Both the position numbers and the translations under genes were made by a program. From the IMG/VR virus record IMGVR_UViG_3300009550_000008: DNA of 64,000 nucleotides; one strand, written 5' to 3'. The DNA comes from a virus. Shown here one piece after another: positions 26,091-43,309 of this stretch. The notes beneath the pieces are model-generated. The model saw only the letters and a list, made by a program, of their open reading frames with translations, searched no databases and was not told the origin of the DNA. How positions within the stretch are numbered: the first letter of the stretch is position 1; each line of letters opens with the position of its first letter.

Positions 26091-26293
26091 TGGGTATTAA
26101 GGTAGAAGGACATACACATTTGATAAGAGACGAAGAGTCTCATGCAATTATCAATACGGATGTTGAACAATATAGACTCACTATGAGACGAAGACAAGTG
26201 TTAAGAACTCAGAGAGATGAGATAAATAGTTTAAGACAAGAAGTAACAGAGATCAAAGGACTATTAAAGGAATTAATTAATAACAATGGCTAG
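26090..26293 (+). CDS. Small coiled-coil virion-associated protein
   Basis: TAATG overlap with the upstream stop; KVEGH..LIRD..S.AIINTD followed by a heptad tail. Confidence 0.7.
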   Translation: MGIKVEGHTHLIRDEESHAIINTDVEQYRLTMRRRQVLRTQRDEINSLRQEVTEIKGLLKELINNNG

Positions 26294-27506
26294 AACAGTA
26301 ACAAGAAATCAGACTTTAGAAGAGTTTAGAAGTAATTATAATGGACTTGCAGCGGATGTAGGGACACTATCAGGCCTTAGTGGTAATATTTCAAATCAAG
26401 GAAACATAGTCGATGCAATTAACGAATTAGAAGCAAAGACTTTCTATTTCGACTCGTTTACTTTTACTGCAACTGGTTCTCAGACAACTTTTAACTCATC
26501 ACACGAAAGTGATAGTAAAACTGTAAGGATTAGAACAGGTAGATACCAAGTATTTAAAAATTCTGCTCTACTTATAGAAGGTAACGATTTTAACCTTGCA
26601 TCATTAAGTAATGGTGAGTACGGTGCAATCACTTTAAACTCAGGTGCATCTGCTGGTGACATTATTACAATCTACACCTTTACAGGTTCAGTAGTTGGTA
26701 CACAAAGTGGTGTCGGTGGTGCTGGTGGTGGTCAGTTTACAGAAACAGCTCAAAACACAATTTACAATATTAACTCCAATGGTGTTATTCTAAATGGAGA
26801 TAGTACCTCACGAACAACAACTTTAGAGTCAGGATATACTTTACAATTAGCAGGTAAAACTTTTGCAGAAGATGATTTAGTTTCAGGAGTAGCTGGTAAG
26901 AAAGTACAATTCCCAATCGTATCTGATGGTACTGCACAATTTACTGGTGGAGTTGGAACAGGATTTAGTTCAATAACTTCTACTGCATTAGTAGGAAATT
27001 TAACAGGTAATGTAACTGGTAATGTCACAGGTGATGTATCAGGAAGTTCAGGAACAACAAATTCTATTAGTGCTCATAGTATAAATGCACTGAGTGATGT
27101 TACATTAAACTCTCCAGCAAATGGTCAGGTACTTGTATATAATACATCAAGTAGTAAATTTGAAAATGCAAATGCAGCTGCAACTTATACAAACGAAGAT
27201 GCACAGGATACTGTGGCTGCAATGATCGCAGCTGGAACTCACAGTAATATTACTGTTACTTACGATGACGCTGCGAATACAATGTCTTTTTCTGCAGCAG
27301 CTCAATATGCAGACTCAGATGCAAGAGGTGCTGTCTCAGGTGGAGATGGTCTTGCATACAATTCAACATCAGGGGTATTTGCTGTTAACACTTCCAACGG
27401 GATAGAAATCAATAGTGATTCAGTTGAACTAGATTATGAGATCGTATCTTCTGCACCTAGTGGTGTCGGTTCTACTGCAACTGGACACTTATGGTTTGTA
27501 GTATGA
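26286..27506 (+). CDS. Tail fibre/adaptor protein (406 aa)
   Basis: TLEEFR N-terminus, GNVTGNVTG repeats, INALSDV..NGQVLVY, C-terminal SSAPSG...GHLWFVV. Confidence 0.7.
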   Translation: MARTVTRNQTLEEFRSNYNGLAADVGTLSGLSGNISNQGNIVDAINELEAKTFYFDSFTFTATGSQTTFNSSHESDSKTVRIRTGRYQVFKNSALLIEGNDFNLASLSNGEYGAITLNSGASAGDIITIYTFTGSVVGTQSGVGGAGGGQFTETAQNTIYNINSNGVILNGDSTSRTTTLESGYTLQLAGKTFAEDDLVSGVAGKKVQFPIVSDGTAQFTGGVGTGFSSITSTALVGNLTGNVTGNVTGDVSGSSGTTNSISAHSINALSDVTLNSPANGQVLVYNTSSSKFENANAAATYTNEDAQDTVAAMIAAGTHSNITVTYDDAANTMSFSAAAQYADSDARGAVSGGDGLAYNSTSGVFAVNTSNGIEINSDSVELDYEIVSSAPSGVGSTATGHLWFVV

Positions 27507-27507
27507 T

Positions 27508-28962
27508 ATGGCTGACGAAATTTATATAAACACAGGGTCGACTTTTCAACAACCCTATCAGGGTCAAGTACCAGCAAACGCTCAACAACCAGTTATCAGG
27601 AACATTGATGGAACATATCCAGCAAATGCTCAGAGTCCGTTCACTTATCAGAACAGACAACCTTTTACATATCAAGATCAGAAAAACGCTAGACAGCCTG
27701 TAATTTACGATCATCGATCTCCGTTTACATATAATAGACAAGGTCGATCTCCATTTACATATCAACATCCAGTAATTAGAGATGGACAACAACCAAACAT
27801 ATATCAGGTACAAAGTCCGTTCACTTATAATAGAACAGGTCAATCGCCATTTACATATCAACATCAGTCACCTAGTACATATCAGTTCCAAGCAAATAAA
27901 CAACAACCGACTATTAAACAACAGTCTTACAATGATGTAAATGTAAATAGACAAACAACATATACAGTTGATGCTCGAACTCCTATACAAGAACCTCATA
28001 TTGGTAATAGACAAGTTGGTGTTCAAGGGCCGTACATAGGTGGTAACCAACAACCCCATTCCCACTACGAACCTGAATTGAATTCGTGGTTGAATTTTAG
28101 AGTTCCTCAGTCTACTCAAGCTCAAGGGCCGTATATAACACCACAAACATATGGGTTTCAAGCAAATGCAGTTAATGTGCAGACCAGTCGACAACAACCA
28201 GTAAGTTCACAGAGTCCATTTACATTTTCAGGTCAATCACATGAGACTGTATGGAACCAACAGATTGGTGAACCGATTCCTTACAGGGTTCCAGTAATCA
28301 ATCAACCAGCAAGACAGCCTGTTAGTTCACGAAGTCCATATAGACAACCTAGTATTACATTGACCAATGTTGGTAATGCAAGACAACCTTATAGACAACC
28401 CGTACAACAACCATCTATCTATCAACATATTAGACAGGTTGCTTACGATCATAGATCACCGTTTACATATCCTAGGACAGATGTGAATGCACAACAACCT
28501 AATATAAGGGATGCACAACAACCATATCCTTACATTGCAAACGCACAGGAGAGTAATGAGAGGAATGCAAGGAGTCCTTTCACTTACGATCATAGACAAC
28601 CTAGTAATATACAACAAGCATATCCTTACATTGCAAACGCACAAGAACCTAACATTAGGGATAAACAAAGTCCATTCACTTATGCACATCCAGTGAATGC
28701 ACAATCTCCATATATTGCAGATGCAAGATCACCTAGTACATATCAGGAATCTTATACTTACACCTACGATCATAGATCACCTTTCACATATCAGGTGAAT
28801 TATTCAACTACAAGACCCATCGGGCCTCTTGCAAAAGTTAAAGGTGTCTTTATAAACGATGGTGGTACAGTTAAAAAAGCACAGACTGTTCATGTGAATG
28901 ATAGTGGAACTGCAGAAAAAATACATGATGCAGTGCCTAATGCACAGTTCTTAAAAGGATAA
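27508..28962 (+). CDS. Pro/Gln/Tyr repeat fibre protein with internal mirror symmetry (484 aa)
   Basis: SPFTY, QQP, YPYIANAQ and YDHRSP repeats; N and C arms have reversed unit lengths. Confidence 0.8.
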   Translation: MADEIYINTGSTFQQPYQGQVPANAQQPVIRNIDGTYPANAQSPFTYQNRQPFTYQDQKNARQPVIYDHRSPFTYNRQGRSPFTYQHPVIRDGQQPNIYQVQSPFTYNRTGQSPFTYQHQSPSTYQFQANKQQPTIKQQSYNDVNVNRQTTYTVDARTPIQEPHIGNRQVGVQGPYIGGNQQPHSHYEPELNSWLNFRVPQSTQAQGPYITPQTYGFQANAVNVQTSRQQPVSSQSPFTFSGQSHETVWNQQIGEPIPYRVPVINQPARQPVSSRSPYRQPSITLTNVGNARQPYRQPVQQPSIYQHIRQVAYDHRSPFTYPRTDVNAQQPNIRDAQQPYPYIANAQESNERNARSPFTYDHRQPSNIQQAYPYIANAQEPNIRDKQSPFTYAHPVNAQSPYIADARSPSTYQESYTYTYDHRSPFTYQVNYSTTRPIGPLAKVKGVFINDGGTVKKAQTVHVNDSGTAEKIHDAVPNAQFLKG

Positions 28963-32534: not shown

Positions 32535-32768
32535 ATGGCAGATACAAAAAATTTCAGAGTAGAGTATGGAATTAACAGTGGTTCTAGTGAGGTGATAAAT
32601 TCAAGTGGGAAAGTTGTAGCATCTGCTCTATCAGCAGTCGATTCAGACGATATAACAGAAGGTTCGTCTAATACATTTTTTACTACAACCCGTGTGAATA
32701 ACCACCTAGCAGATTCCGGCTCGGCAAAGACAATTAATAATGCTACAATAGATGGAGGAACATTCTAG
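32535..32768 (+). CDS. Small fibre linker protein ending in DGGTF
   Basis: NFRVEYGI N-terminus, DDITEGSSN.FFT, DGGTF; CATAAATA at 32484. Confidence 0.7.
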   Translation: MADTKNFRVEYGINSGSSEVINSSGKVVASALSAVDSDDITEGSSNTFFTTTRVNNHLADSGSAKTINNATIDGGTF

Positions 32769-34603
32769 TGGCTGCACAGAATTTTAAAATCAAGAACGGT
32801 TTAACGGTAGGTACTACTGAGGTAATCGATAGTTCAGGTGACTTAACAAATGCAGCTTTCGGAACTGCAGCTAAAGAAGCAATTGACGATCAAGTAAATA
32901 CTCTAATGACCGCAGGTTCGGGAATCTCATTATCATATGACGATTCAGCAGGAACATTAACAGTAACAAGAGATGCAGAAACAGGAGACATCGAAGGAGT
33001 TGTTGCTGGTACAAACTTAAGTGGTGGTGGTACATCGGGTACAGTCACATTAAATGTAGAACAAGAATTAACAAACTCAACTGCACCATTTTACCATAAG
33101 ATCGCTGTAACAGTAGTCAGTGATAGTGGTAACAAATATGCAATGGATGGAAATACATCAGGTGGTGTTGCAGTTAGATTGATGCCTAATATAGTTTATA
33201 GGTTCGATCAATCAGACAGTTCAAACGCAAACCATCCATTAAGATTTTCAGAAACCTCAGATGGAACCCACAACAGTGGTGCAGAAATATCTGATGGTTA
33301 TCTAATATACAACAAAGTCGGAACACCAGGCTCGGCGGGTGCATACACAGAAGTTGCATTTGACCAAGAAAGTAACGACACATTATACACATACTGTTCT
33401 GCTCATAGTGGTATGGGACAGACAGTCACATTAGGATATGCTGGTGACATTACAGGTGTTACTGCTGGAGACGGTCTCTCAGGTGGTGGTGCAACTGGAG
33501 CGGTATCACTTGCATTAGATTTAAGTGAACTAACAGCTGCAGTGGTAGACCCTGCGACAGATAGTATTGCAATTATCGATGCTGGAGATGGTTCATCTAA
33601 GAAAGAAGCAATCGCAGACCTTGCAACGATGCAAGCTGGAGACGGACTAAGTGCATCAAGTGGTGCATTTGCAGTAAATGTAGATGACAGTTCAATAGAA
33701 ACAAGTTCAGATTCACTACAAGTCAAAGCTGGTGGTGTTACAAATGCAATGTTAGCAGGTTCAATTGCAAACGCAAAACTTGCAAATTCAGCAATCACAA
33801 TTGCTGGAAGTTCTACTTCATTAGGTGGAACAGTTCTTGCAGACACCGATGCATTAACAGAAGGTTCTTCAAACTTATATCTAACAAACGAAAGAATTGA
33901 TGACAGAGTTGCAACTCTTATAGTTGGTGGTTCAAATATCACATCAACTTATGATGATGCAGCGGGTACATTAACACTTGCTGGTTCGGCTGCATATGCA
34001 GACTCAGATGCAAGAGGTGCTATATCGGTAACCGATTCAGGTGGAGATGGTTCACTTGCATACAATAACTCTACAGGTGTTATCACATATACAGGCCCAA
34101 GTGCATCAGAAGTAAGAGCTCATATAACTGCTGGAACTGGTATTGGAATCAGTTCAGGTGAAGTAAGTATCGGGCAAGCAGTTGCAACATCAAGTAATGT
34201 TCAATTTGCAAACTTAACACTTTCAGGTGACTTAACAGTAAACGGAACAACCACAACAGTAGCAACAACAAACTCAGTGATTTCAGATGCATTGATAGAA
34301 CTAGGAAATGGAACATCAGGTTCACCAGCAAATGATGCTGGTCTAGTTATCGAAAGAGGAAGTTCAGACAATGTATTCATTGGTTGGGACGAAAGTGCAG
34401 ATGCAATCACATTCGGTACAGGTTCATTTACAGGTGCAGATACAGGTAACTTGACAATAACACCTAGTGCAGTAAACACAGGTGCAGTGACAATTACAAA
34501 CGCAACAAATAGTGGTGGTACAGCAAGGAATGTTTATCAGTCTACATCAGCTCCGACAGGTGGAGATGGTGCAGTTGGTGATTTATGGATTTTATACTCT
34601 TAA
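32768..34603 (+). CDS. Tail fibre/adaptor protein with cupredoxin-like insert (611 aa, GTG start)
   Basis: NFKIKNGL N-terminus, HPLRFS...YCSAHSGMG, LTEGSSNLY, C-terminal TSAPTGGDGAVGDLWILYS. Confidence 0.75.
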   Translation: MAAQNFKIKNGLTVGTTEVIDSSGDLTNAAFGTAAKEAIDDQVNTLMTAGSGISLSYDDSAGTLTVTRDAETGDIEGVVAGTNLSGGGTSGTVTLNVEQELTNSTAPFYHKIAVTVVSDSGNKYAMDGNTSGGVAVRLMPNIVYRFDQSDSSNANHPLRFSETSDGTHNSGAEISDGYLIYNKVGTPGSAGAYTEVAFDQESNDTLYTYCSAHSGMGQTVTLGYAGDITGVTAGDGLSGGGATGAVSLALDLSELTAAVVDPATDSIAIIDAGDGSSKKEAIADLATMQAGDGLSASSGAFAVNVDDSSIETSSDSLQVKAGGVTNAMLAGSIANAKLANSAITIAGSSTSLGGTVLADTDALTEGSSNLYLTNERIDDRVATLIVGGSNITSTYDDAAGTLTLAGSAAYADSDARGAISVTDSGGDGSLAYNNSTGVITYTGPSASEVRAHITAGTGIGISSGEVSIGQAVATSSNVQFANLTLSGDLTVNGTTTTVATTNSVISDALIELGNGTSGSPANDAGLVIERGSSDNVFIGWDESADAITFGTGSFTGADTGNLTITPSAVNTGAVTITNATNSGGTARNVYQSTSAPTGGDGAVGDLWILYS

Positions 34604-34623: not shown

Positions 34624-35910
34624 ATGGCGTCAGGTAACCAAAAGGTTAAAACCCCTTCGGGTTGGAATGCAACTCAAGGTGCTTGGGTAAAAACAGGCAG
34701 TACAACTTGGAAGGCAGTAGATCAGATTTATATCAAGACTCCCGATGGATGGAATGATGCATCAGGACAAGAAGCAACGCAAATTCCTTACCCTTACATT
34801 GCAACTGGACAGGAACCAAACATTAGACAAACTATTGTTACATATCCTTACATTGCAAATGCTCAAGAACCAAATATAAGACAAACCATTGTTCCCTATC
34901 CTTACATTGCAAATGGTCAGGAACCTAACCAAAGATCAAGACAGATTTCTTATACCTATCAGGCACAGGCAAGACAACCAGTTGAATATCAATATGGTTC
35001 ACCGTTTACATACGATCATAGAGAACCTAATACATATTCAATAAGATCACCGTTTACATACGATCATAGGTCACCGTTCACTTATAATAGAACTGGAAGA
35101 AGTCCTTTTACTTATAATAGAACTGGTAGGACACCATTTACATATCAGGCACCAGCAAGACAACCTGCGACATATCAGGCTCCTGCTCGACAACCTTTTA
35201 TTGCAAATGCAAGACAACCGAATACATATCAAGCACCAGCAAGACAACCATTTATTGCAAGTGCAAGACAACCAGCAACATATCAAGCACCTGCGAGACA
35301 ACCGTTCATTGCATCTGCGAGACAACCTGCGACTTATCAAGCACCAGCAAGACAACCGTTCATTGCAAGTGCAAGAAACCCGTTCACTTATCAAGCAAGA
35401 ACACCAGTGTTTATACCAGGCGGTGGTGGTGGTTGCTTCAGTTCCGATATGCTTATTCTTATGGGTGATAATAGACTTATGCCTATCAGTGAAGTTCAAG
35501 CTGGAGACTTTGTATTATCATTTAACTTTGAAACTAACTTACTAGAATCTAGAGAAGTTGGTGCAATGATGGAACCAAGAGAAGATATACAACTATATAA
35601 TGTTAAACTTTCAAATGGTAACCACATTGAAATATCAGGTGGTCACCCAGTATCTACATCAAGAGGATGGAGATATATTAATGAGGATGCATGGAAAGTC
35701 GAAGTTGAAGCTGGAATTGCAGACTTCGAATGTGCAGAGGGTGAATTTGAAGTGGGTGACGAACTATTCTATTTCGGAGAACAAGAAGTGGTCGTTGAAA
35801 GTATAACTAAACAAGAAGAACTACAAACTACTTACAACATTGTATTAGTAGAAGGTAATGAAAACTATTTTGTGAATGGTGTTCTAGTTCATAACGGAGA
35901 GAAGAAGTAA
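34624..35910 (+). CDS. Repeat fibre chain A with C-terminal Hint (intein-like) autoprocessing domain
   Basis: Trp-rich N-terminal domain, 23 Pro-terminated repeats, GGGGG linker, then CF...SGGH...TYNI...NYFVNGVLVHN-GEKK. Confidence 0.88.
   Translation: MASGNQKVKTPSGWNATQGAWVKTGSTTWKAVDQIYIKTPDGWNDASGQEATQIPYPYIATGQEPNIRQTIVTYPYIANAQEPNIRQTIVPYPYIANGQEPNQRSRQISYTYQAQARQPVEYQYGSPFTYDHREPNTYSIRSPFTYDHRSPFTYNRTGRSPFTYNRTGRTPFTYQAPARQPATYQAPARQPFIANARQPNTYQAPARQPFIASARQPATYQAPARQPFIASARQPATYQAPARQPFIASARNPFTYQARTPVFIPGGGGGCFSSDMLILMGDNRLMPISEVQAGDFVLSFNFETNLLESREVGAMMEPREDIQLYNVKLSNGNHIEISGGHPVSTSRGWRYINEDAWKVEVEAGIADFECAEGEFEVGDELFYFGEQEVVVESITKQEELQTTYNIVLVEGNENYFVNGVLVHNGEKK
35167..35382 (+). 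repeat. 4 x 54-bp coding tandem repeat (ATYQAPARQP-FIASARQP)
   Basis: Visible in DNA and protein, with synonymous variation between copies. Confidence 0.9.
35434..35895 (+). other. Hint domain (Cys271-Asn424); +1 residue is Gly
   Basis: Block A Cys, block B SxxH, terminal His-Asn; no homing endonuclease insert. Confidence 0.85.
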
Positions 35911-36602
35911 TGGCTCAACAACCGTATCCAGCTAGTGCCCAACAACCGTTTACTTATAACGCGCAGAATCCATTTACATATCCTGCGAATTATCAGAATC
36001 CGTTCACTTATAACGCACAGAACCCGTTCACATACCCAGCAAACTATCAGAACCCGTTCACATACAATGCACAGAATCCGTTTACTTATCCAGCAAACTA
36101 TCAGTCACCGTTTACGCATAATGCTCAGAATCCGTTTACTTACCCAGCAAACTATCAGAGTCCATTTACATATCCAGCAAATGCACAACAACCTTATCCG
36201 TATATTGCAAATGCACAACAACCGTATCCGTATACTGCAGTAGGACAACAACCTAATATTAGGGCTTCACAACAACCTGCGATTAAAGATAGACAATCAC
36301 CGTATATTGCAGCTGCACAGGAACCAAATATTAGAGATTTACAGAGTCCGTTTACATATATGAATCAGGGTCGAGTACCTCAGACATATATTCACCAGTC
36401 TCCATTTACATATTCAAGACAAGGTGATACACAACAGTCTTATGACCATAGAAGTCCATTTACTTATCAGGTTATTGCAAATACTCAGAACAACTATGAC
36501 CATAGGTCTCCGTTCACATATGCAAGACAGGGACGAACTCCTGAACCAAGATGGGATGGTGTGGTTACACAACAGTGGCCTGCGACTCCAATTACCTCTT
36601 AA
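35910..36602 (+). CDS. Repeat fibre chain B, mirror partner of chain A (230 aa)
   Basis: TAATG overlap with chain A; 23 Pro-terminated repeats. Confidence 0.85.
   Translation: MAQQPYPASAQQPFTYNAQNPFTYPANYQNPFTYNAQNPFTYPANYQNPFTYNAQNPFTYPANYQSPFTHNAQNPFTYPANYQSPFTYPANAQQPYPYIANAQQPYPYTAVGQQPNIRASQQPAIKDRQSPYIAAAQEPNIRDLQSPFTYMNQGRVPQTYIHQSPFTYSRQGDTQQSYDHRSPFTYQVIANTQNNYDHRSPFTYARQGRTPEPRWDGVVTQQWPATPITS
35949..36164 (+). repeat. 4 x 54-bp coding tandem repeat (FTYNAQNP-FTYPANYQNP)
   Basis: Visible in DNA and protein. Confidence 0.9.
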
Positions 36603-36623: not shown

Positions 36624-38189
36624 ATGTTAAAGACCATAGAAAACCTTGAACAAGCACGCAACTTTGAATTTAATACTCAGGGTATTGTTACCCAAGGATA
36701 TCAACAAGAAGCAATACGATTAGCAAATTCATATGATTTTGCAAGACCTAATAATGAAACGAGTGTTGATTGTTGGCAAGTGATGAAGTATGCCTTTGAG
36801 TCTCAACCACCTATAAAAAAGGTTCATTGGGAACAGATAAAAGAAAGGATAAATGATAATACATTACATACATTTGGACAATTACATCACAATTCTGTAC
36901 AGTATCTTAGATATGTTCAAGATGGTTGGACAGAAAAACTAAGACCCGACCATCCTATTGGTGGTGGTTCGATGGACTTTATGAATTATGATGATGAGTA
37001 TCAATGGTTATCAACTGTTAGTGACCATCCTGATTGTAATCAATTAAATCCAAGAGAAGAGAATACTCTAAGTTCATGTTATTATCACGCTGCAAAAGCA
37101 CACTGGTTAGTAAACAACATTCAGAAAGAAGGATTGAGACATCCTATCCAAGGACATACACATAAAAGTACAAGTGCCTCAGAATTTGGATTGACTATTC
37201 ATCCAGGCTCGATCAGATGTAGAGTAATGGAGACCCTTGATGACAATGAACTATATGTTTTAGTTACTGATTTTGAAAATGTATTTGATGAAGTAGAACC
37301 TTTTACATTCGAAGAGATGATGGATATGTGGGGTGAGTTAGGTAATAACAAAGGTAATCTATCTGCAATATTCGTTGATGGTAAAATAGAATGGTCACTA
37401 TCATCTACAGCTGGACTTGATTTTAGAGATGAAGTTTTTGATTTCAATAGAAAGGTAACTAAGTTAACGAAGAAAAAACCAGTTAACATATATCTTGGAT
37501 ACGATTCATCACATAGTGAGGTATACGATGTTGCAGAAGCTTCTATTCATCATTCTATAGAGAAATGTAAGAGTGGTGGTGTATCACATGAATTCTTTAA
37601 TGACTATAAGATAGAAGTCAAGAAACTTGACATTAATGCAATTTCAGAGTATACTAGACCTTACGCAAATCAATCTACTGAGTTTACTTACAGTAGATTC
37701 CTCATTCCATATCTAGAGAACTATGAAGGATTCAGTTTCTTTATAGATGACGATTACATATGGCAATGGTCACCTACATCCTTATTCTATTTCTTAGACC
37801 CTGAACATGCAATTGCTTGTGTTCAGTATCAGTTCGATCACCATGATGAAACCAAAATGGATGGTGAGAAGAATGTATCATATCCTAAAAAACTTTGGTC
37901 AAGTATGATGATCTTTAACAATGGTCATGAGGATTGTAAAAAATTAACACCCGAAGTTGTGAATACTGCAAGTGGACAATACTTACATCAGTTTGAATGG
38001 ACAGATCAGATCAGTGAAATCCCAGGCCATAAGATTGCAACAGAAGGATATGATAGTGAGTTATTAAAGACTCACCATGCAGTTCATTATACAAGAGGAG
38101 GCCCATGGATAAAAGACATGGATTATTCCAACATAAATATGTTAGAACTGTATAAACAGATGAAAAACAAGTTGCCAAAAAGCAACTAA
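36624..38189 (+). CDS. Fusion of a ParB/Srx-like domain and a GT-A glycosyltransferase (CDI/GT8-like)
   Basis: IYLGYD, QSTEFTYSRFLIPYL, FIDDD (DxD), YPKKLWSSMMIFN, YLHQFEW, VHYTRGGPW. Confidence 0.85.
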   Translation: MLKTIENLEQARNFEFNTQGIVTQGYQQEAIRLANSYDFARPNNETSVDCWQVMKYAFESQPPIKKVHWEQIKERINDNTLHTFGQLHHNSVQYLRYVQDGWTEKLRPDHPIGGGSMDFMNYDDEYQWLSTVSDHPDCNQLNPREENTLSSCYYHAAKAHWLVNNIQKEGLRHPIQGHTHKSTSASEFGLTIHPGSIRCRVMETLDDNELYVLVTDFENVFDEVEPFTFEEMMDMWGELGNNKGNLSAIFVDGKIEWSLSSTAGLDFRDEVFDFNRKVTKLTKKKPVNIYLGYDSSHSEVYDVAEASIHHSIEKCKSGGVSHEFFNDYKIEVKKLDINAISEYTRPYANQSTEFTYSRFLIPYLENYEGFSFFIDDDYIWQWSPTSLFYFLDPEHAIACVQYQFDHHDETKMDGEKNVSYPKKLWSSMMIFNNGHEDCKKLTPEVVNTASGQYLHQFEWTDQISEIPGHKIATEGYDSELLKTHHAVHYTRGGPWIKDMDYSNINMLELYKQMKNKLPKSN

Positions 38190-38200
38190 TATGTTATAAT
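38172..38200 (+). promoter_or_regulatory. Sigma70-type promoter TTGCCA-17-TATAAT with extended -10 TG
   Basis: TTGCCA 38172-77, TG 38192-93, TATAAT 38195-200. Confidence 0.7.
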
Positions 38201-38209
38201 GGAGATATT

Positions 38210-38779
38210 ATGAATTGTTTAATATACGATCAATGGGGTAATCTTTTTATAAGAAAACCTAATGGACTTGAGTGGAGACATGAAAATGTCGATAGACCTG
38301 CTTTAGGTTTTGACTTTGATGTTCTTATATACGATGATGTTGAATTTAAAATTGAAAAATTTGAAGACGGCAAAGAAATGGAAGAACAGGAAAAGCAACC
38401 CTTAACTGAAACCGATAAAGATGCCATCGAGGCATATATTGAAAATGCTGAACCCCCTAGTGGTGTCAGTCTAAACCAACAATATGTTGGGAGAATTGCA
38501 GAAGTTGTTAGAAACAATGTTATGCATCAATGTGAGAAATATGGATTCGATGATATGATCGAAGTATTGATGGCTGCAAGAGAAGGTTCTGCACATCCAT
38601 ATCGATCAAATGCTAGAAGAGCATTAGAATATTCAGATGCAGTAGCAAATGTTGCAGAGGGTGTATTCAGAGAGATTCAAATCACTAGAGAAGATACACT
38701 TAAACCTTTAGATGAATACATAATGCAAATACCACCTCCGTCTATTGGTGTTGGTAGAGATCAGTCTGTAGTAGGTTAA
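38210..38779 (+). CDS. Hypothetical protein; possible tail-fibre assembly chaperone-like
   Basis: C-terminal KYGFDD.......HPYRSNARRALEYSDAV resembles fibre-chaperone-like helical domains (weak). Confidence 0.5.
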   Translation: MNCLIYDQWGNLFIRKPNGLEWRHENVDRPALGFDFDVLIYDDVEFKIEKFEDGKEMEEQEKQPLTETDKDAIEAYIENAEPPSGVSLNQQYVGRIAEVVRNNVMHQCEKYGFDDMIEVLMAAREGSAHPYRSNARRALEYSDAVANVAEGVFREIQITREDTLKPLDEYIMQIPPPSIGVGRDQSVVG

Positions 38780-38780
38780 C

Positions 38781-39497
38781 ATGCCCTCATTCGACTCGAT
38801 CAATGTCGAACACATTGAGTCCCCTTTTTACATCGAAGACATGCCTTTGGGTAATACTGTCTATGTTATAGATGATTATCTAGAGTCTTCACTTCATAAA
38901 GCCATGCATAGACATTTAGATCAGTGTTCATGGCAAAAGACTAATCAAGTCGATTATAGGGGCCCGAATCGAGGAGGACTTCCTAATCATTCTTTATGGG
39001 GATGTTCTTTTATAGTAGGTGAAAAACAAAATGATGGATATCTAAATGGTGCATCAGGATGTTCTAATTATTTAATTAGATGGTTTAATAGAAGACTAGA
39101 AACAGACTTTGGTTTTGCATGGGTAAGGTTTCAATATGCTGGTGCAAACTCTCAAACCCATGGTCAACATGGAACATGTCATGCAGATTGTCAGAAAGAT
39201 GATGAATGGAATCTTTCCTTTCTTTATTATACAAATAGATTTTGGAATCCACACTGGGGTGGTAAGTTAAGATTCTATAGTGAAAATAGAGAAGGTGGAA
39301 TCTTAGAACAAATGGATGATGTCGAAATAGGTTCCATTGATTTCAAACCAAATCGTCTCTTAATGTTTGATGGAAGAATACAACATGGTGCAGAAGCTCC
39401 ATCAGAAGATGCACGATATATAGATAGAAGATCAATTGTCGTTAGAGGAGACGAGATCGAGTTATTAAATAGGGGAGATAGATATGCCTACAATTGA
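38781..39497 (+). CDS. 2OG-Fe(II) oxygenase (prolyl-4-hydroxylase-like)
   Basis: HAD (HxD), WNPHWGG.L.F, FKPNRLLMFDG.IQH, terminal R.S. Confidence 0.85.
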   Translation: MPSFDSINVEHIESPFYIEDMPLGNTVYVIDDYLESSLHKAMHRHLDQCSWQKTNQVDYRGPNRGGLPNHSLWGCSFIVGEKQNDGYLNGASGCSNYLIRWFNRRLETDFGFAWVRFQYAGANSQTHGQHGTCHADCQKDDEWNLSFLYYTNRFWNPHWGGKLRFYSENREGGILEQMDDVEIGSIDFKPNRLLMFDGRIQHGAEAPSEDARYIDRRSIVVRGDEIELLNRGDRYAYN

Positions 39498-40410
39498 GTT
39501 TAGAACATATAATAAACCATCGTTTGAAATGTTCAGACCAGTTGCAGCTAAATCTATGCAACCTGAATGGTGGAAGAAACAAAAGATTCGTGTAGATCAT
39601 CGTGGTCGTGTTGCACAAACAATAAGGTCTTGTCCTTCAATGCAAGACTGGTTAACAATGGGATATTATATTGTTTCAAGTGTTGATATCCCAATTAGAA
39701 ATGGATTAGATTGGAACTGGCCTAGTGGAGAAAGATTCTCTACGGATGAAGAAATTCCAGTACATTCTAGATCACACCCGTCTGCTCAAATGCAAGATTC
39801 TATAGAGTATTTGGGAGACGATGGCCCAGTTAAAGATGCATTTAAAATATCATCTTACTGGAATATGAAAACCCCGCCGGGCTATTCTGTTTTATTTTTA
39901 GACCCTTTCCTGTTTCAGAATAAATACTTTGCATGTTGGCAAGGAGTGATTGATACTGATGAGTTCAATGTTAATTTGGACAATGCACACATCATATTCT
40001 ATCCTAAAGTAAACCATTCATTTGTTATACCAGCTGGTACTCCACTGGTACAAGTGTTCCCATTTAAGAGGGAAGAATGGACATCAACATATTTTTTTCA
40101 AGAGCACTCAGATTGGCATAAGAATCATGGAACACATGAGAAGTCAATGCAAAAATGGCAAAGGAGTTTGGAATTGGTAGATGCAGATGGAACACCTAAT
40201 GAGAAGATCAACATCGGTGGTTATAGGAATGCTAAAATTTGGAAACCAAAGAGTAGATTCTTTGATAAACCCGAAGAAGTAAACCCACCACCTGAATGTC
40301 CAATGCACAGATCAGAAGAACAGCTGGAAATGGACTTTAATGATAAACAACGAGAGTTGACAGATTTAAATTGGGACGGTTCGGAGTCAAAGAAAATAGA
40401 TAGAGATTAG
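39484..40410 (+). CDS. Conserved hypothetical protein (DUF6065-like), often next to phage 2OG oxygenases
   Basis: TIRSCPSM.D....GY, KTPPGYSVLF..P, GVIDTD, IPAGTPLVQVFPFKRE.W. Confidence 0.6.
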   Translation: MPTIEFRTYNKPSFEMFRPVAAKSMQPEWWKKQKIRVDHRGRVAQTIRSCPSMQDWLTMGYYIVSSVDIPIRNGLDWNWPSGERFSTDEEIPVHSRSHPSAQMQDSIEYLGDDGPVKDAFKISSYWNMKTPPGYSVLFLDPFLFQNKYFACWQGVIDTDEFNVNLDNAHIIFYPKVNHSFVIPAGTPLVQVFPFKREEWTSTYFFQEHSDWHKNHGTHEKSMQKWQRSLELVDADGTPNEKINIGGYRNAKIWKPKSRFFDKPEEVNPPPECPMHRSEEQLEMDFNDKQRELTDLNWDGSESKKIDRD

Positions 40411-40413
40411 ATT

Positions 40414-41094
40414 ATGTCAGTTAGATTATTATTTCCAACATTACTTTTTGAGTATAACTTGTTGGAAGAAGGGTTAGTTACTCAAACATATTTGGATGAA
40501 TTAAAAGCAGATATGGATGCAATGAGAATGAAAGACCCAGTGGGAAGACAGATTTCTAATGCATATACTGGTTGGCAATCGAATGATGGTTGTGAGTCTA
40601 GGCCTGCATGGGTAAAAATGATGAGAATCATTAAAGAGAAATTCAACCAAGAGATACTTCCTTTTAGTGGAGTGGATACATCAAAATTCCAAGTTAGAAT
40701 GGGTAATTGTTGGGCAAATGTAAATGATAGAGGTGCATGGAATAAACCACATGGTCACAATGGATGTTGGTGGAGTGGTGCATTATATATTAATGCAGAA
40801 GGTGACGAAGGAGATTTCGTTGCAATCAATACAGACCCTAAAGTATTAAGTGACTTCCCAGCTGCACCTAGGTTTAGAGAGAATCATTGTATAAGACCTA
40901 TCTCAGGAACACTTCTTTGTTTCCCTAGTGGTCTACTACATATGGTTGAACCTAATGCATCAAGTAATGATAGATACAGTGTTGCATTTAATATGAATAA
41001 CGAAAGGTTAAGTGGGTCACCTCAAGAGACAGCAATTCCTATAGATGACAACTGGAATAAATTCGATATAGAAGAAGGCGAAGTAAAGAGATAA
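40414..41094 (+). CDS. Putative 2OG-Fe(II) oxygenase (TIGR02466-like)
   Basis: WANVN..G.WNKPHGH, WSGALY, FPSGLLHMVEPN, RYSVAFN. Confidence 0.85.
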   Translation: MSVRLLFPTLLFEYNLLEEGLVTQTYLDELKADMDAMRMKDPVGRQISNAYTGWQSNDGCESRPAWVKMMRIIKEKFNQEILPFSGVDTSKFQVRMGNCWANVNDRGAWNKPHGHNGCWWSGALYINAEGDEGDFVAINTDPKVLSDFPAAPRFRENHCIRPISGTLLCFPSGLLHMVEPNASSNDRYSVAFNMNNERLSGSPQETAIPIDDNWNKFDIEEGEVKR

Positions 41095-42234: not shown

Positions 42235-43092
42235 ATGCCTACGAATGTTTACTTTAATCATGCTGTAAAGACAGAACAGCACCTCTATGAGGACTTAGTC
42301 GTTGAATCATTACGATTCTACGGACACGATGTCTTATATCTACCTAGAACAATTGTAGAAGAGGATACTATTTTCACCGAGGATGTACAATCCACATTCG
42401 GTGACGCCTATTCGGTTGAAATGTATCTCGAAAATACAGAAGGGTTCGAAGGAGACGGAGACCTTGTTTCTAAGTTCGGTGTACAGATACAAGAGGAAGC
42501 AACATTCATTATATCTTTAAGAACATGGGAGAGATTCATTTCCCTAGATTCTAACCTTGCAGTATCACTAAGACCTAACGAAGGGGATTTAATTTACTTC
42601 CCACTTACAGGTTCATTATTTGAAATCAGATTCGTAGAAGACCAAGACCCATTCTTCCAGTTAGGAAAGATGTTTGTATTCAAGATGAGATGTTCATTGT
42701 TCGAATACTCAGGAGAAGATTTCGATACTGGTACAAGTGCAGACTTGGTAGAAGCAGATCAAGCTTACACAATCGAATTGACCATGACTGGTTCAGGAAA
42801 CTATACTCATGGAGAGAATTTAACTACTGTAATTGATTCAGTTACACATACAGTTGGAGAGGTTGTACTATGGCAACCAAACGCAAACAAACTTACAATT
42901 AAGGATAACACTAAGACACTACAAGTTGGAGATACACTAACAGGTGCATCATCTACAACTGCAAGAGCAATTGGAAGTATCGTGGATGTTCAATCATTCC
43001 ATAATCTAGCTTCTGCTCAGAATGTAGAGTTCGAAGAGAAGGATAGTTCATATCTAGACTTTAGTGAAGTGAATCCATTCGGTGAACCATAA
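42235..43092 (+). CDS. gp14: Neck protein gp14
   Basis: EQ.LYEDLVVESL..YG, SKFG, RPNEGDLIYFP, PFFQLGK, DFSEVNPFG. Confidence 0.93.
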   Translation: MPTNVYFNHAVKTEQHLYEDLVVESLRFYGHDVLYLPRTIVEEDTIFTEDVQSTFGDAYSVEMYLENTEGFEGDGDLVSKFGVQIQEEATFIISLRTWERFISLDSNLAVSLRPNEGDLIYFPLTGSLFEIRFVEDQDPFFQLGKMFVFKMRCSLFEYSGEDFDTGTSADLVEADQAYTIELTMTGSGNYTHGENLTTVIDSVTHTVGEVVLWQPNANKLTIKDNTKTLQVGDTLTGASSTTARAIGSIVDVQSFHNLASAQNVEFEEKDSSYLDFSEVNPFGEP

Positions 43093-43093
43093 A

Positions 43094-43309
43094 ATGATAG
43101 AAAAAATAATAGCAGAAACGATTGGTTGTGACCAAGACGCAGTAAAAGATAAATCAAATTTTGTAAAAGATTTAGGTGCAGACTCATTAAATATTGTTGA
43201 ATTGGTCATGGAAATTGAAAAAGAATTTGATATAGAAGTTCCTGATGATGATGCAGAAACATTACATACAGTTGCAGACTTGAAACAGTATATTGAGGAC
43301 AACTCATAA
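43094..43309 (+). CDS. acpP: Acyl carrier protein
   Basis: DLGADSL (phosphopantetheine Ser), VELVM.IE.EFDIEVPD..AE...TV.D. Alternative GTG start at 43082. Confidence 0.9.
   Translation: MIEKIIAETIGCDQDAVKDKSNFVKDLGADSLNIVELVMEIEKEFDIEVPDDDAETLHTVADLKQYIEDNS

What the first reader, a model, noticed from the sequence alone, without database searches (positions are those of the whole stretch)
34624..36602. Two adjacent genes whose repeats are exact mirror images: a candidate antiparallel protein zipper with a pairing code
Seen: splitting at the recurring xxP boundaries (a few lack the Pro and were placed by homology), chain A residues 56-261 give unit lengths 10,8,10,8,10,8,10,8,8,8,8,10,10,10,10,8,10,8,10,8,10,8,8. 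Chain B residues 6-211 give 8,8,10,8,10,8,10,8,10,10,10,10,8,8,8,8,10,8,10,8,10,8,10, which is the exact reverse (23 units, 206 aa each). Paired units are complementary rather than identical: YPYIANAQxP with FTYxRxGRxP, NIRxxxxP with xxYDHRSP, FIASARQP with FTYNAQNP, ATYQAPARQP with FTYPANYQNP. In the 10-mers an aromatic at position 1 always faces Gly/Ala at position 7 of the partner. Where A has F-TYQAPARQP the partner is FTYPAN-A-QQP; where A has A/N-TYQAPARQP the partner is FTYPAN-Y-QxP, a compensatory swap. Tyr3 mostly faces Arg, Lys or Ala. A TAATG overlap suggests 1:1 synthesis. Inference: the chains zip into a long two-stranded antiparallel beta-ribbon filament, about 70 nm if fully extended at ~3.3 A per residue. 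This differs from the parallel trimeric fibres of T4, and I do not recognise it as described.
Basis: partly seen in the sequence, partly recalled or inferred. Interest (0 to 1): 0.95.

Follow-up and report, generated by a model that had tools for sequence, protein, structure and literature searches.

The report
Mirror-coded two-chain phage fibre
Two neighbouring genes of an uncultured marine T4-like phage encode repeat proteins that match unit by unit when one is read backwards; over 100 natural gene pairs keep this match and change in step, which points to a thin fibre of two chains zipped head to tail by a sequence code that I could not find described.

Summary
Observation confirmed. The 23 units of A (56-261) and B (6-211) are an exact mirror (chance about 1e-6), with no DNA inverted repeat behind it. 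Among 120 distinct homologous gene pairs (B 190-559 aa), 107 peak at the register fixed by two terminal anchors; chains fit their own partner (median 0.78) far better than foreign ones (0.27). Units fall into two classes that pair heterotypically (93-98%) and swap between chains. Close relatives show compensated indels and co-substitutions at one register (67 vs 18 expected). Prolines and aromatics keep strictly opposite parity and aromatics face Gly/Ala, as expected for an antiparallel two-stranded beta-ribbon. A paralogue at 27508-28962 uses the same code as a one-chain hairpin and is split in other phages. Both follow a fibre gene with a shared end motif; A's far end carries an exchangeable tip (short tail, Hint domain or other domain). 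The TAATG overlap is not conserved. No PDB, family or literature precedent found. The scan noted this family before on other genomes.

The parts
34624..35910 (+). Gene A (428 aa): base domain, repeat strand, Gly linker, Hint domain
34624..34788 (+). A residues 1-55: conserved small Trp/Lys/Thr-rich base domain (inferred docking module)
   Evidence: invariant columns in alignment A1; anchor Trp43
34789..35406 (+). A residues 56-261: 23-unit repeat strand (outgoing strand)
35407..35910 (+). Gly-rich linker and Hint domain (Cys270 at 35431; His-Asn followed by Gly, no +1 nucleophile); exchangeable tip position
   Evidence: Pfam Intein_splicing E 5e-9; tail classes
35910..36602 (+). Gene B (230 aa): returning strand
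35925..36542 (+). B residues 6-211: 23-unit mirror-complementary repeat strand
36543..36602 (+). B residues 212-230: conserved C-terminal peptide with two Trp; lies at the base, next to A's base domain (inferred)
   Evidence: alignment A2; anchor Trp223
32768..34603 (+). Upstream fibre/structural protein (611 aa) ending in a G-D-L-W motif; inferred carrier on which A/B docks
   Evidence: PHROG tail fibre and structural hits; motif upstream of A in 115 of 115 loci with flank
27508..28962 (+). Paralogue C (484 aa): one-chain fold-back version; arms at residues 17-122 (27556-27873) and 332-437 (28501-28818) pair by the same code; base domain at the C-terminus
26286..27506 (+). Upstream carrier of C (406 aa) ending in the related G-H-L-W motif

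Best explanation
A and B are the two strands of one long, thin virion fibre of a marine T4-like myophage. A runs out from the base and B runs back, antiparallel and in fixed register (residue i of A opposite residue 264-i of B in this window), as a twisted two-stranded beta-ribbon, about 68 nm if flat. Units of 6, 8 or 10 residues come in two complementary classes; either class can sit on either chain, and a unit pairs with a unit of equal length and opposite class. Odd positions form the hydrogen-bonded pairs and carry aromatic-over-Gly/Ala or Tyr-over-Arg knob-and-hole pairs; prolines sit at the alternate positions, where the backbone NH points outward, so they cost no cross-strand bond and block the edges. 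The irregular order of unit lengths fixes a single register. A's N-terminal domain and B's C-terminal peptide form the base, which docks on the end of the fibre protein encoded upstream; A's C-terminus is the distal tip and carries an exchangeable module, here a self-cleaving Hint domain. Shown: mirror, class rule, co-variation, parity, gene context, one-chain paralogue. Inferred: physical binding, beta conformation, strand number, docking, role in host attachment.
For: Exact mirror beyond chance; 107 of 120 distinct pairs peak at the anchor-predicted register over 66 different B lengths; cognate 0.78 vs non-cognate 0.27, cognate ranks first for 48 of 52; heterotypic pairing 93-98% vs 51-73% expected, covariation on the anti-diagonal in both directions; co-substitutions between close relatives peak at K-2 (67 vs 18.3 +/- 4.4) and K (55), for example A182 Ala>Phe with B82 Tyr>Ala against a 95% relative; matched +18/+18 and +36/+36 indels; 30/30 and 31/31 Pro on one parity, 33/33 and 42/42 aromatics on the other, 2327 of 2329 segments of even length; at i+j=264, 55 aromatic-small pairs and 1 aromatic-aromatic; aromatic-Gly pairs are typical of the narrow H-bonded pair of antiparallel sheet (PMC3410847); one-chain hairpin and split forms of paralogue C; tail-fibre genes occupy the syntenic slot in Pelagibacter phage Mosig.
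Against: 13 of 120 pairs peak off register; six are repaired by one block indel of 18-88 aa, but L073, L074 and L231 stay at 50-71% and a further group at about 75%; whether these are assembly errors was not tested. The upstream carrier is probably trimeric (T4 fibres are; PMC3004832), which suits three AB copies as well as one. The base domains of A and C resemble each other only weakly (hhalign probability 11%). No cultured phage carries the genes, so the place on the virion is inferred from gene order only.
Confidence: 0.68

Rival explanations
1. A and B pair antiparallel as described, but three AB pairs assemble on the trimeric carrier into a six-stranded needle or a bundle of three ribbons, like the needle of T4 gp37 with each hairpin split into two genes.
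For: T4 long-fibre proteins are trimers (PMC3004832) and the gp37 needle is six-stranded antiparallel (PMC9659904); all aromatics lie on one face, which could form a shared core.
Against: About 29% of the alternate positions are Pro, which removes the outward NH donors needed for a hydrogen-bonded six-stranded sheet or barrel; the aromatics already have small cross-strand partners; no similarity to gp37 in PDB or PHROG searches.
Confidence: 0.2
2. The chains pair antiparallel but not as beta strands, for example as a polyproline-II-like duplex as in the antigen I/II stalk.
For: High Pro and Gln content; AlphaFold2 assigned no strands in the repeats (low confidence).
Against: Strict period-2 alternation and even unit lengths fit beta strands, not the period 3 of polyproline II; covariation links same-parity positions.
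Confidence: 0.06
3. B is a stoichiometric chaperone or splint that holds A extended during assembly and is absent from the particle, or the duplex is a length ruler and not an attachment fibre.
For: Tail-fibre loci often carry chaperones (peptidase S74 in the syntenic slot of Mosig); no virion proteome exists.
Against: In paralogue C both strands are one chain, and in split C forms the base domain is on the second chain; the variable tip domain sits at the turn, as in adhesins.
Confidence: 0.05
4. The mirror is a by-product of DNA events (inverted duplication, gene conversion) or of flexible parsing.
For: Both chains use the same unit vocabulary and have recent tandem duplications.
Against: No inverted repeat links the two arrays; a parse-free test gives the same register; paired units are different, not identical; non-cognate pairs do not fit.
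Confidence: 0.01

Closest known systems
Needle domain of the T4 long tail fibre protein gp37 (PMC9659904, citing Bartual et al. 2010)
   Same: Distal part of a T4-type fibre, antiparallel beta strands running out and back, receptor-binding module at the turn.
   Different: gp37 is a homotrimer of one chain with a six-stranded needle about 15 nm long (PMC3004832) and, from my own knowledge, metal-bound; here there are two gene products, Pro-punctuated repeats in two complementary classes, 55-175 nm if flat, and no sequence similarity was found.
Streptococcal antigen I/II (SpaP/SspB/AspA) stalk (PMC3178794)
   Same: Two unlike repeat regions pair out and back to form a stalk that projects a variable head at the turn.
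   Different: One chain; alpha-helix plus polyproline helix; the two repeat types are confined to their own arms. Here the strands alternate with period 2, the classes swap freely between chains, and the halves are usually separate genes.
Stalk-and-knob CDR-H3 of bovine ultralong antibodies (own knowledge, not tested)
   Same: Free-standing two-stranded antiparallel beta-ribbon with alternating aromatics and a variable knob at the tip.
   Different: About a dozen residues per strand, one chain, no repeat code.
Hint (Hedgehog/intein) self-cleaving domains, Pfam PF14890/PF01079
   Same: A's C-terminal domain has Cys1 after a Gly linker, a block-B His and a terminal His-Asn.
   Different: No Cys/Ser/Thr after the Asn, so not a splicing intein; present in only 38 of 99 well-matched pairs, so accessory to the zipper.

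Membership tests
T4 gp37-type needle fibre | Sequence or profile similarity to gp37 needle or relatives | tested here: not met
   No PDB match at E<=1 with the A profile; no PHROG or Pfam match for the repeats
T4 gp37-type needle fibre | Both strands of the hairpin in one chain | tested here: not met
   A and B are separate genes in all 120 pairs; only paralogue C has one-chain forms
T4 gp37-type needle fibre | Trimer giving a six-stranded antiparallel needle | not testable with these tools
   Complex prediction unavailable; Pro at about 29% of edge positions argues against
T4 gp37-type needle fibre | Encoded in the tail-fibre region of a T4-like phage | tested here: met
   Between baseplate and neck genes
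Antigen I/II stalk | Ala-rich alpha-helical arm paired with a Pro-rich polyproline arm | tested here: not met
   Both chains have the same composition and period-2 pattern; classes occur on both chains
Antigen I/II stalk | Variable head at the turn of an out-and-back stalk | tested here: met
   Exchangeable tip right after the last paired unit; analogy only
Splicing intein | Cys1, block-B His, terminal His-Asn | tested here: met
Splicing intein | Cys/Ser/Thr at +1 and a C-extein | tested here: not met
   Gly then three residues and stop; none of 38 matched homologues has C/S/T at +1
Two-stranded antiparallel beta-ribbon (structural class) | Period-2 alternation with cross-strand covariation at i+j constant | tested here: met
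Two-stranded antiparallel beta-ribbon (structural class) | Backbone hydrogen-bonded ladder in a confident model or structure | tested here: inconclusive
   AlphaFold2 pLDDT 30 and 43

The most novel reading that the evidence does not exclude
A natural protein duplex with base-pair-like logic: two separately encoded chains, each an arbitrary string over a small alphabet of complementary unit types, zip into a free-standing two-stranded beta-ribbon 55-175 nm long whose length and register are written in the strings, with a swappable tip (including a Hint domain that may trim the tip or couple a small molecule to it). It would be a new class of virion fibre and a programmable heterodimer code.
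Probability: 0.6. Interest if true: 0.95.

Novelty: categorically new. Interest (0 to 1): 0.88.

Why it matters
Known phage fibres are mostly parallel homotrimers, and long free-standing two-stranded beta-ribbons between two gene products are not a described fibre type as far as I could find. Here the pairing rule can be read off the sequence, and more than 60 natural architectures supply a ready set of cognate and non-cognate pairs, so beta-strand register and specificity, a hard problem in protein design, become directly testable. It also raises an evolutionary question: how two tandem arrays in different genes expand in mirrored step. And it points to the host-attachment apparatus of a widespread uncultured group of marine T4-like phages.

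Tried and rejected
AlphaFold2 on one-chain paralogue C with 8 rows gave pLDDT 30; it placed strands only at the two termini. AlphaFold2 on an artificial A-linker-B chain, made by reading through in-frame stops in homologue L083 with 30 rows, gave pLDDT 43 and no secondary structure; Foldseek on it found nothing. No hit in cultured phages, PDB sequences, Pfam/PHROG/NCBIfam for the repeats or named ESM Atlas clusters. A DNA inverted duplication was rejected. No natural A-B fusion was found among longer proteins; P0001 joins a C-type start to a B-type end on a 2-kb contig and may be a chimera. Long eukaryotic hits of the profile search (for example P0043, a RanBP-domain protein) are compositional and were rejected. 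Literature searches found no description; the two-protein fibre of phage A1002 (PMC13730344, abstract only) is a chain of dimers on a rope protein, a different design. The library lacks most subscription papers.

Full report
Setting. The window is the structural region of a T4-like myophage: baseplate wedge and other structural genes upstream, neck, terminase and sheath genes downstream. The sheath is 51% identical to that of Pelagibacter phage Mosig and 47-49% to HTVC008M and Melnitz. In Mosig the slot between baseplate and neck holds tail-fibre genes, a peptidase S74 and 2OG-Fe(II) oxygenases. A and B sit in that slot. No whole genome is held and the host is unknown; four hits in cellular assemblies belong to four unrelated MAGs and are probably binned phage contigs (inference).

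Observation. A (34624-35910) and B (35910-36602) translate as stated. The series are exact reversals; the best parallel match at zero shift is 15/23, and the chance of the exact string is about 1e-6 by permutation or Markov model. No inverted repeat links the arrays, so the mirror is at protein level. The 54-, 30- and 24-nt tandem arrays occur in opposite order in the two genes with similar copy numbers (54 nt x 4.5 in A, x 4.2 in B).

Family test, without parsing. Scans of viral, metagenome and genome contigs gave 120 distinct A/B pairs, B ranging from 190 to 559 aa in 66 lengths. In the window the prolines satisfy p(A)+q(B)=266, the sum of two conserved Trp positions at A's start and B's end. 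Using the same anchors, 107 of 120 pairs have their best antiparallel proline match at exactly that sum, with a median 94% of B prolines matched. In the first 52 pairs the cognate match was 0.78 against 0.27 for non-cognate combinations, and the cognate A ranked first for 48 B chains.

Exceptions. Thirteen pairs peak elsewhere. Six (L012, L031, L106, L107, L235, L257) return to 84-97% with one block indel of 18, 44 or 88 residues, and several have near-identical relatives that match fully, as expected from collapsed tandem repeats in short-read assembly or from transient variants. L073, L074 and L231 remain poor, and a small group sits near 75%. I could not check reads.

The code. Units are almost all 6, 8 or 10 residues; 2 of 2329 segments are odd. 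They fall into two classes, typified by FTYDHRSP and NIRDAQQP. Opposite classes face each other in 93% of 6-mers, 98% of 8-mers and 97% of 10-mers, against 51, 52 and 73% expected. Either class can be on either chain: the share of the first class in A ranges from 0.12 to 0.77. Mutual information concentrates at i+j = L-2 and i+j = L, in both directions and among odd positions. An aromatic at position 1 faces Gly/Ala/Ser in 270 of 275 cases in 10-mers and 174 of 177 in 6-mers. Because pooled units are not independent, I also counted substitutions between close relatives along a spanning tree: changes in A and B coincide at K-2 67 times and at K 55 times, against about 18 under shifted controls and 15-42 at other offsets. 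Relatives also differ by matched indels, +18/+18 and +36/+36.

Structure, inferred. In the window all 30 and 31 prolines lie on one parity and all 33 and 42 aromatics on the other, over 200 residues; at i+j=264, 55 aromatic-small pairs and one aromatic-aromatic pair result. Period-2 alternation of this length indicates extended beta strands. Aromatic-over-Gly pairs are characteristic of the narrow hydrogen-bonded pair in antiparallel sheet (PMC3410847). If odd positions are those pairs, the even positions are the non-bonded pairs whose NH groups point outward in a two-stranded ribbon (general beta-sheet geometry). That is where every proline sits: free of cost to the ladder, and blocking a third strand at about 29% of edge sites. 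This favours a two-stranded ribbon, probably coiled, about 68 nm if flat here and 55-175 nm across the family. It does not exclude side-by-side bundling of three ribbons.

A natural control. ORF C (27508-28962) uses the same units in one chain: residues 17-122 pair with 437-332 by the same rules. Homologues of C occur both as single chains and as two genes that mirror each other at a fixed anchor in most, not all, cases. The two-gene state is therefore equivalent to a hairpin opened at the turn. In L230 the order of A and B is reversed and the match is still complete. The TAATG overlap occurs in only 21 of 120 pairs.

Base and tip. A's N-terminal domain and B's C-terminal peptide are the conserved ends and meet at one end of the duplex. 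The gene upstream of A ends in a G-D-L-W-type motif in 115 of 115 loci with enough flank, and the gene upstream of C ends in a G-H-L-W variant; the protein upstream of A hits tail-fibre and structural PHROGs. C carries a similar small domain at its C-terminus, only weakly alignable to A's. I infer that this domain docks the ribbon on the carrier's tip. At the other end, A continues past the last paired unit into a short Gly-rich tail (44 pairs), a Gly linker plus Hint domain (38) or a longer extension (17), mostly a 145-160 aa domain followed by a small extra gene. The Hint domain has Cys1, a block-B His and His-Asn but no +1 nucleophile, so it should cleave itself off, not splice; whether it merely leaves a Gly-ended tip or couples something to it is open.

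Comparison and novelty. It works like the gp37 needle (antiparallel distal fibre; PMC9659904) and like the antigen I/II stalk (two unlike repeat arms projecting a variable head; PMC3178794), but fails membership in both. No match in PDB, Pfam, PHROG, NCBIfam, cultured phages or named Atlas clusters, and five literature searches found no description. The scan has reported the same family on other genomes; those notes agree but are not independent evidence. Verdict: a real, strongly selected mirror code; antiparallel A-B pairing about 0.9 likely; a two-stranded beta-ribbon fibre about 0.7; structure and function still need experiment.

Noticed in passing
window 27508-28962: One-chain hairpin paralogue of the A/B pair; its central 135 residues are irregular and do not mirror at the main register. 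About half of its homologues are split into two genes, the first with its own tip domain or a Hint domain.
   Followed up: yes
window 36624-41094: A weak glycosyltransferase-8-like protein (E 0.014) and two 2OG-Fe(II) oxygenases follow B; the glycosyltransferase-like gene directly follows the pair in 65 of 89 loci. They could modify the Pro/Tyr/Thr-rich fibre, but such oxygenases are also syntenic in Mosig, which lacks the fibre.
   Followed up: partly
L230:5420-7215: Gene order swapped (B before A), shortest pair found (B 190 aa), mirror complete; a good construct for experiments.
   Followed up: partly
L051, L057, L063, L065, L075 (between A and B): Pairs with a 145-160 aa tip domain on A carry an 86-100 aa ORF between A and B, possibly a tip chaperone or partner; no Pfam match for two tip domains tested.
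   Followed up: partly
L073:7417-10816 and L074: A lineage with 16-residue units built on the same pattern; mirror holds near base and tip but many central pairs are like-with-like.
   Followed up: partly
L078, L050: Single segments that are identical in both chains and face each other (self-complementary units), like palindromic sites in DNA.
   Followed up: no
P0002-P0030 and P0032-P0108: A third group of first-chain proteins with C-like starts and large C-terminal domains, 400-580 aa, suggesting further paralogous fibre loci in related phages.
   Followed up: no
window 43082-43309: A 75-aa ORF between the neck genes that looks by eye like an acyl carrier protein (acidic, with a D-S-L motif); not searched.
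   Followed up: no
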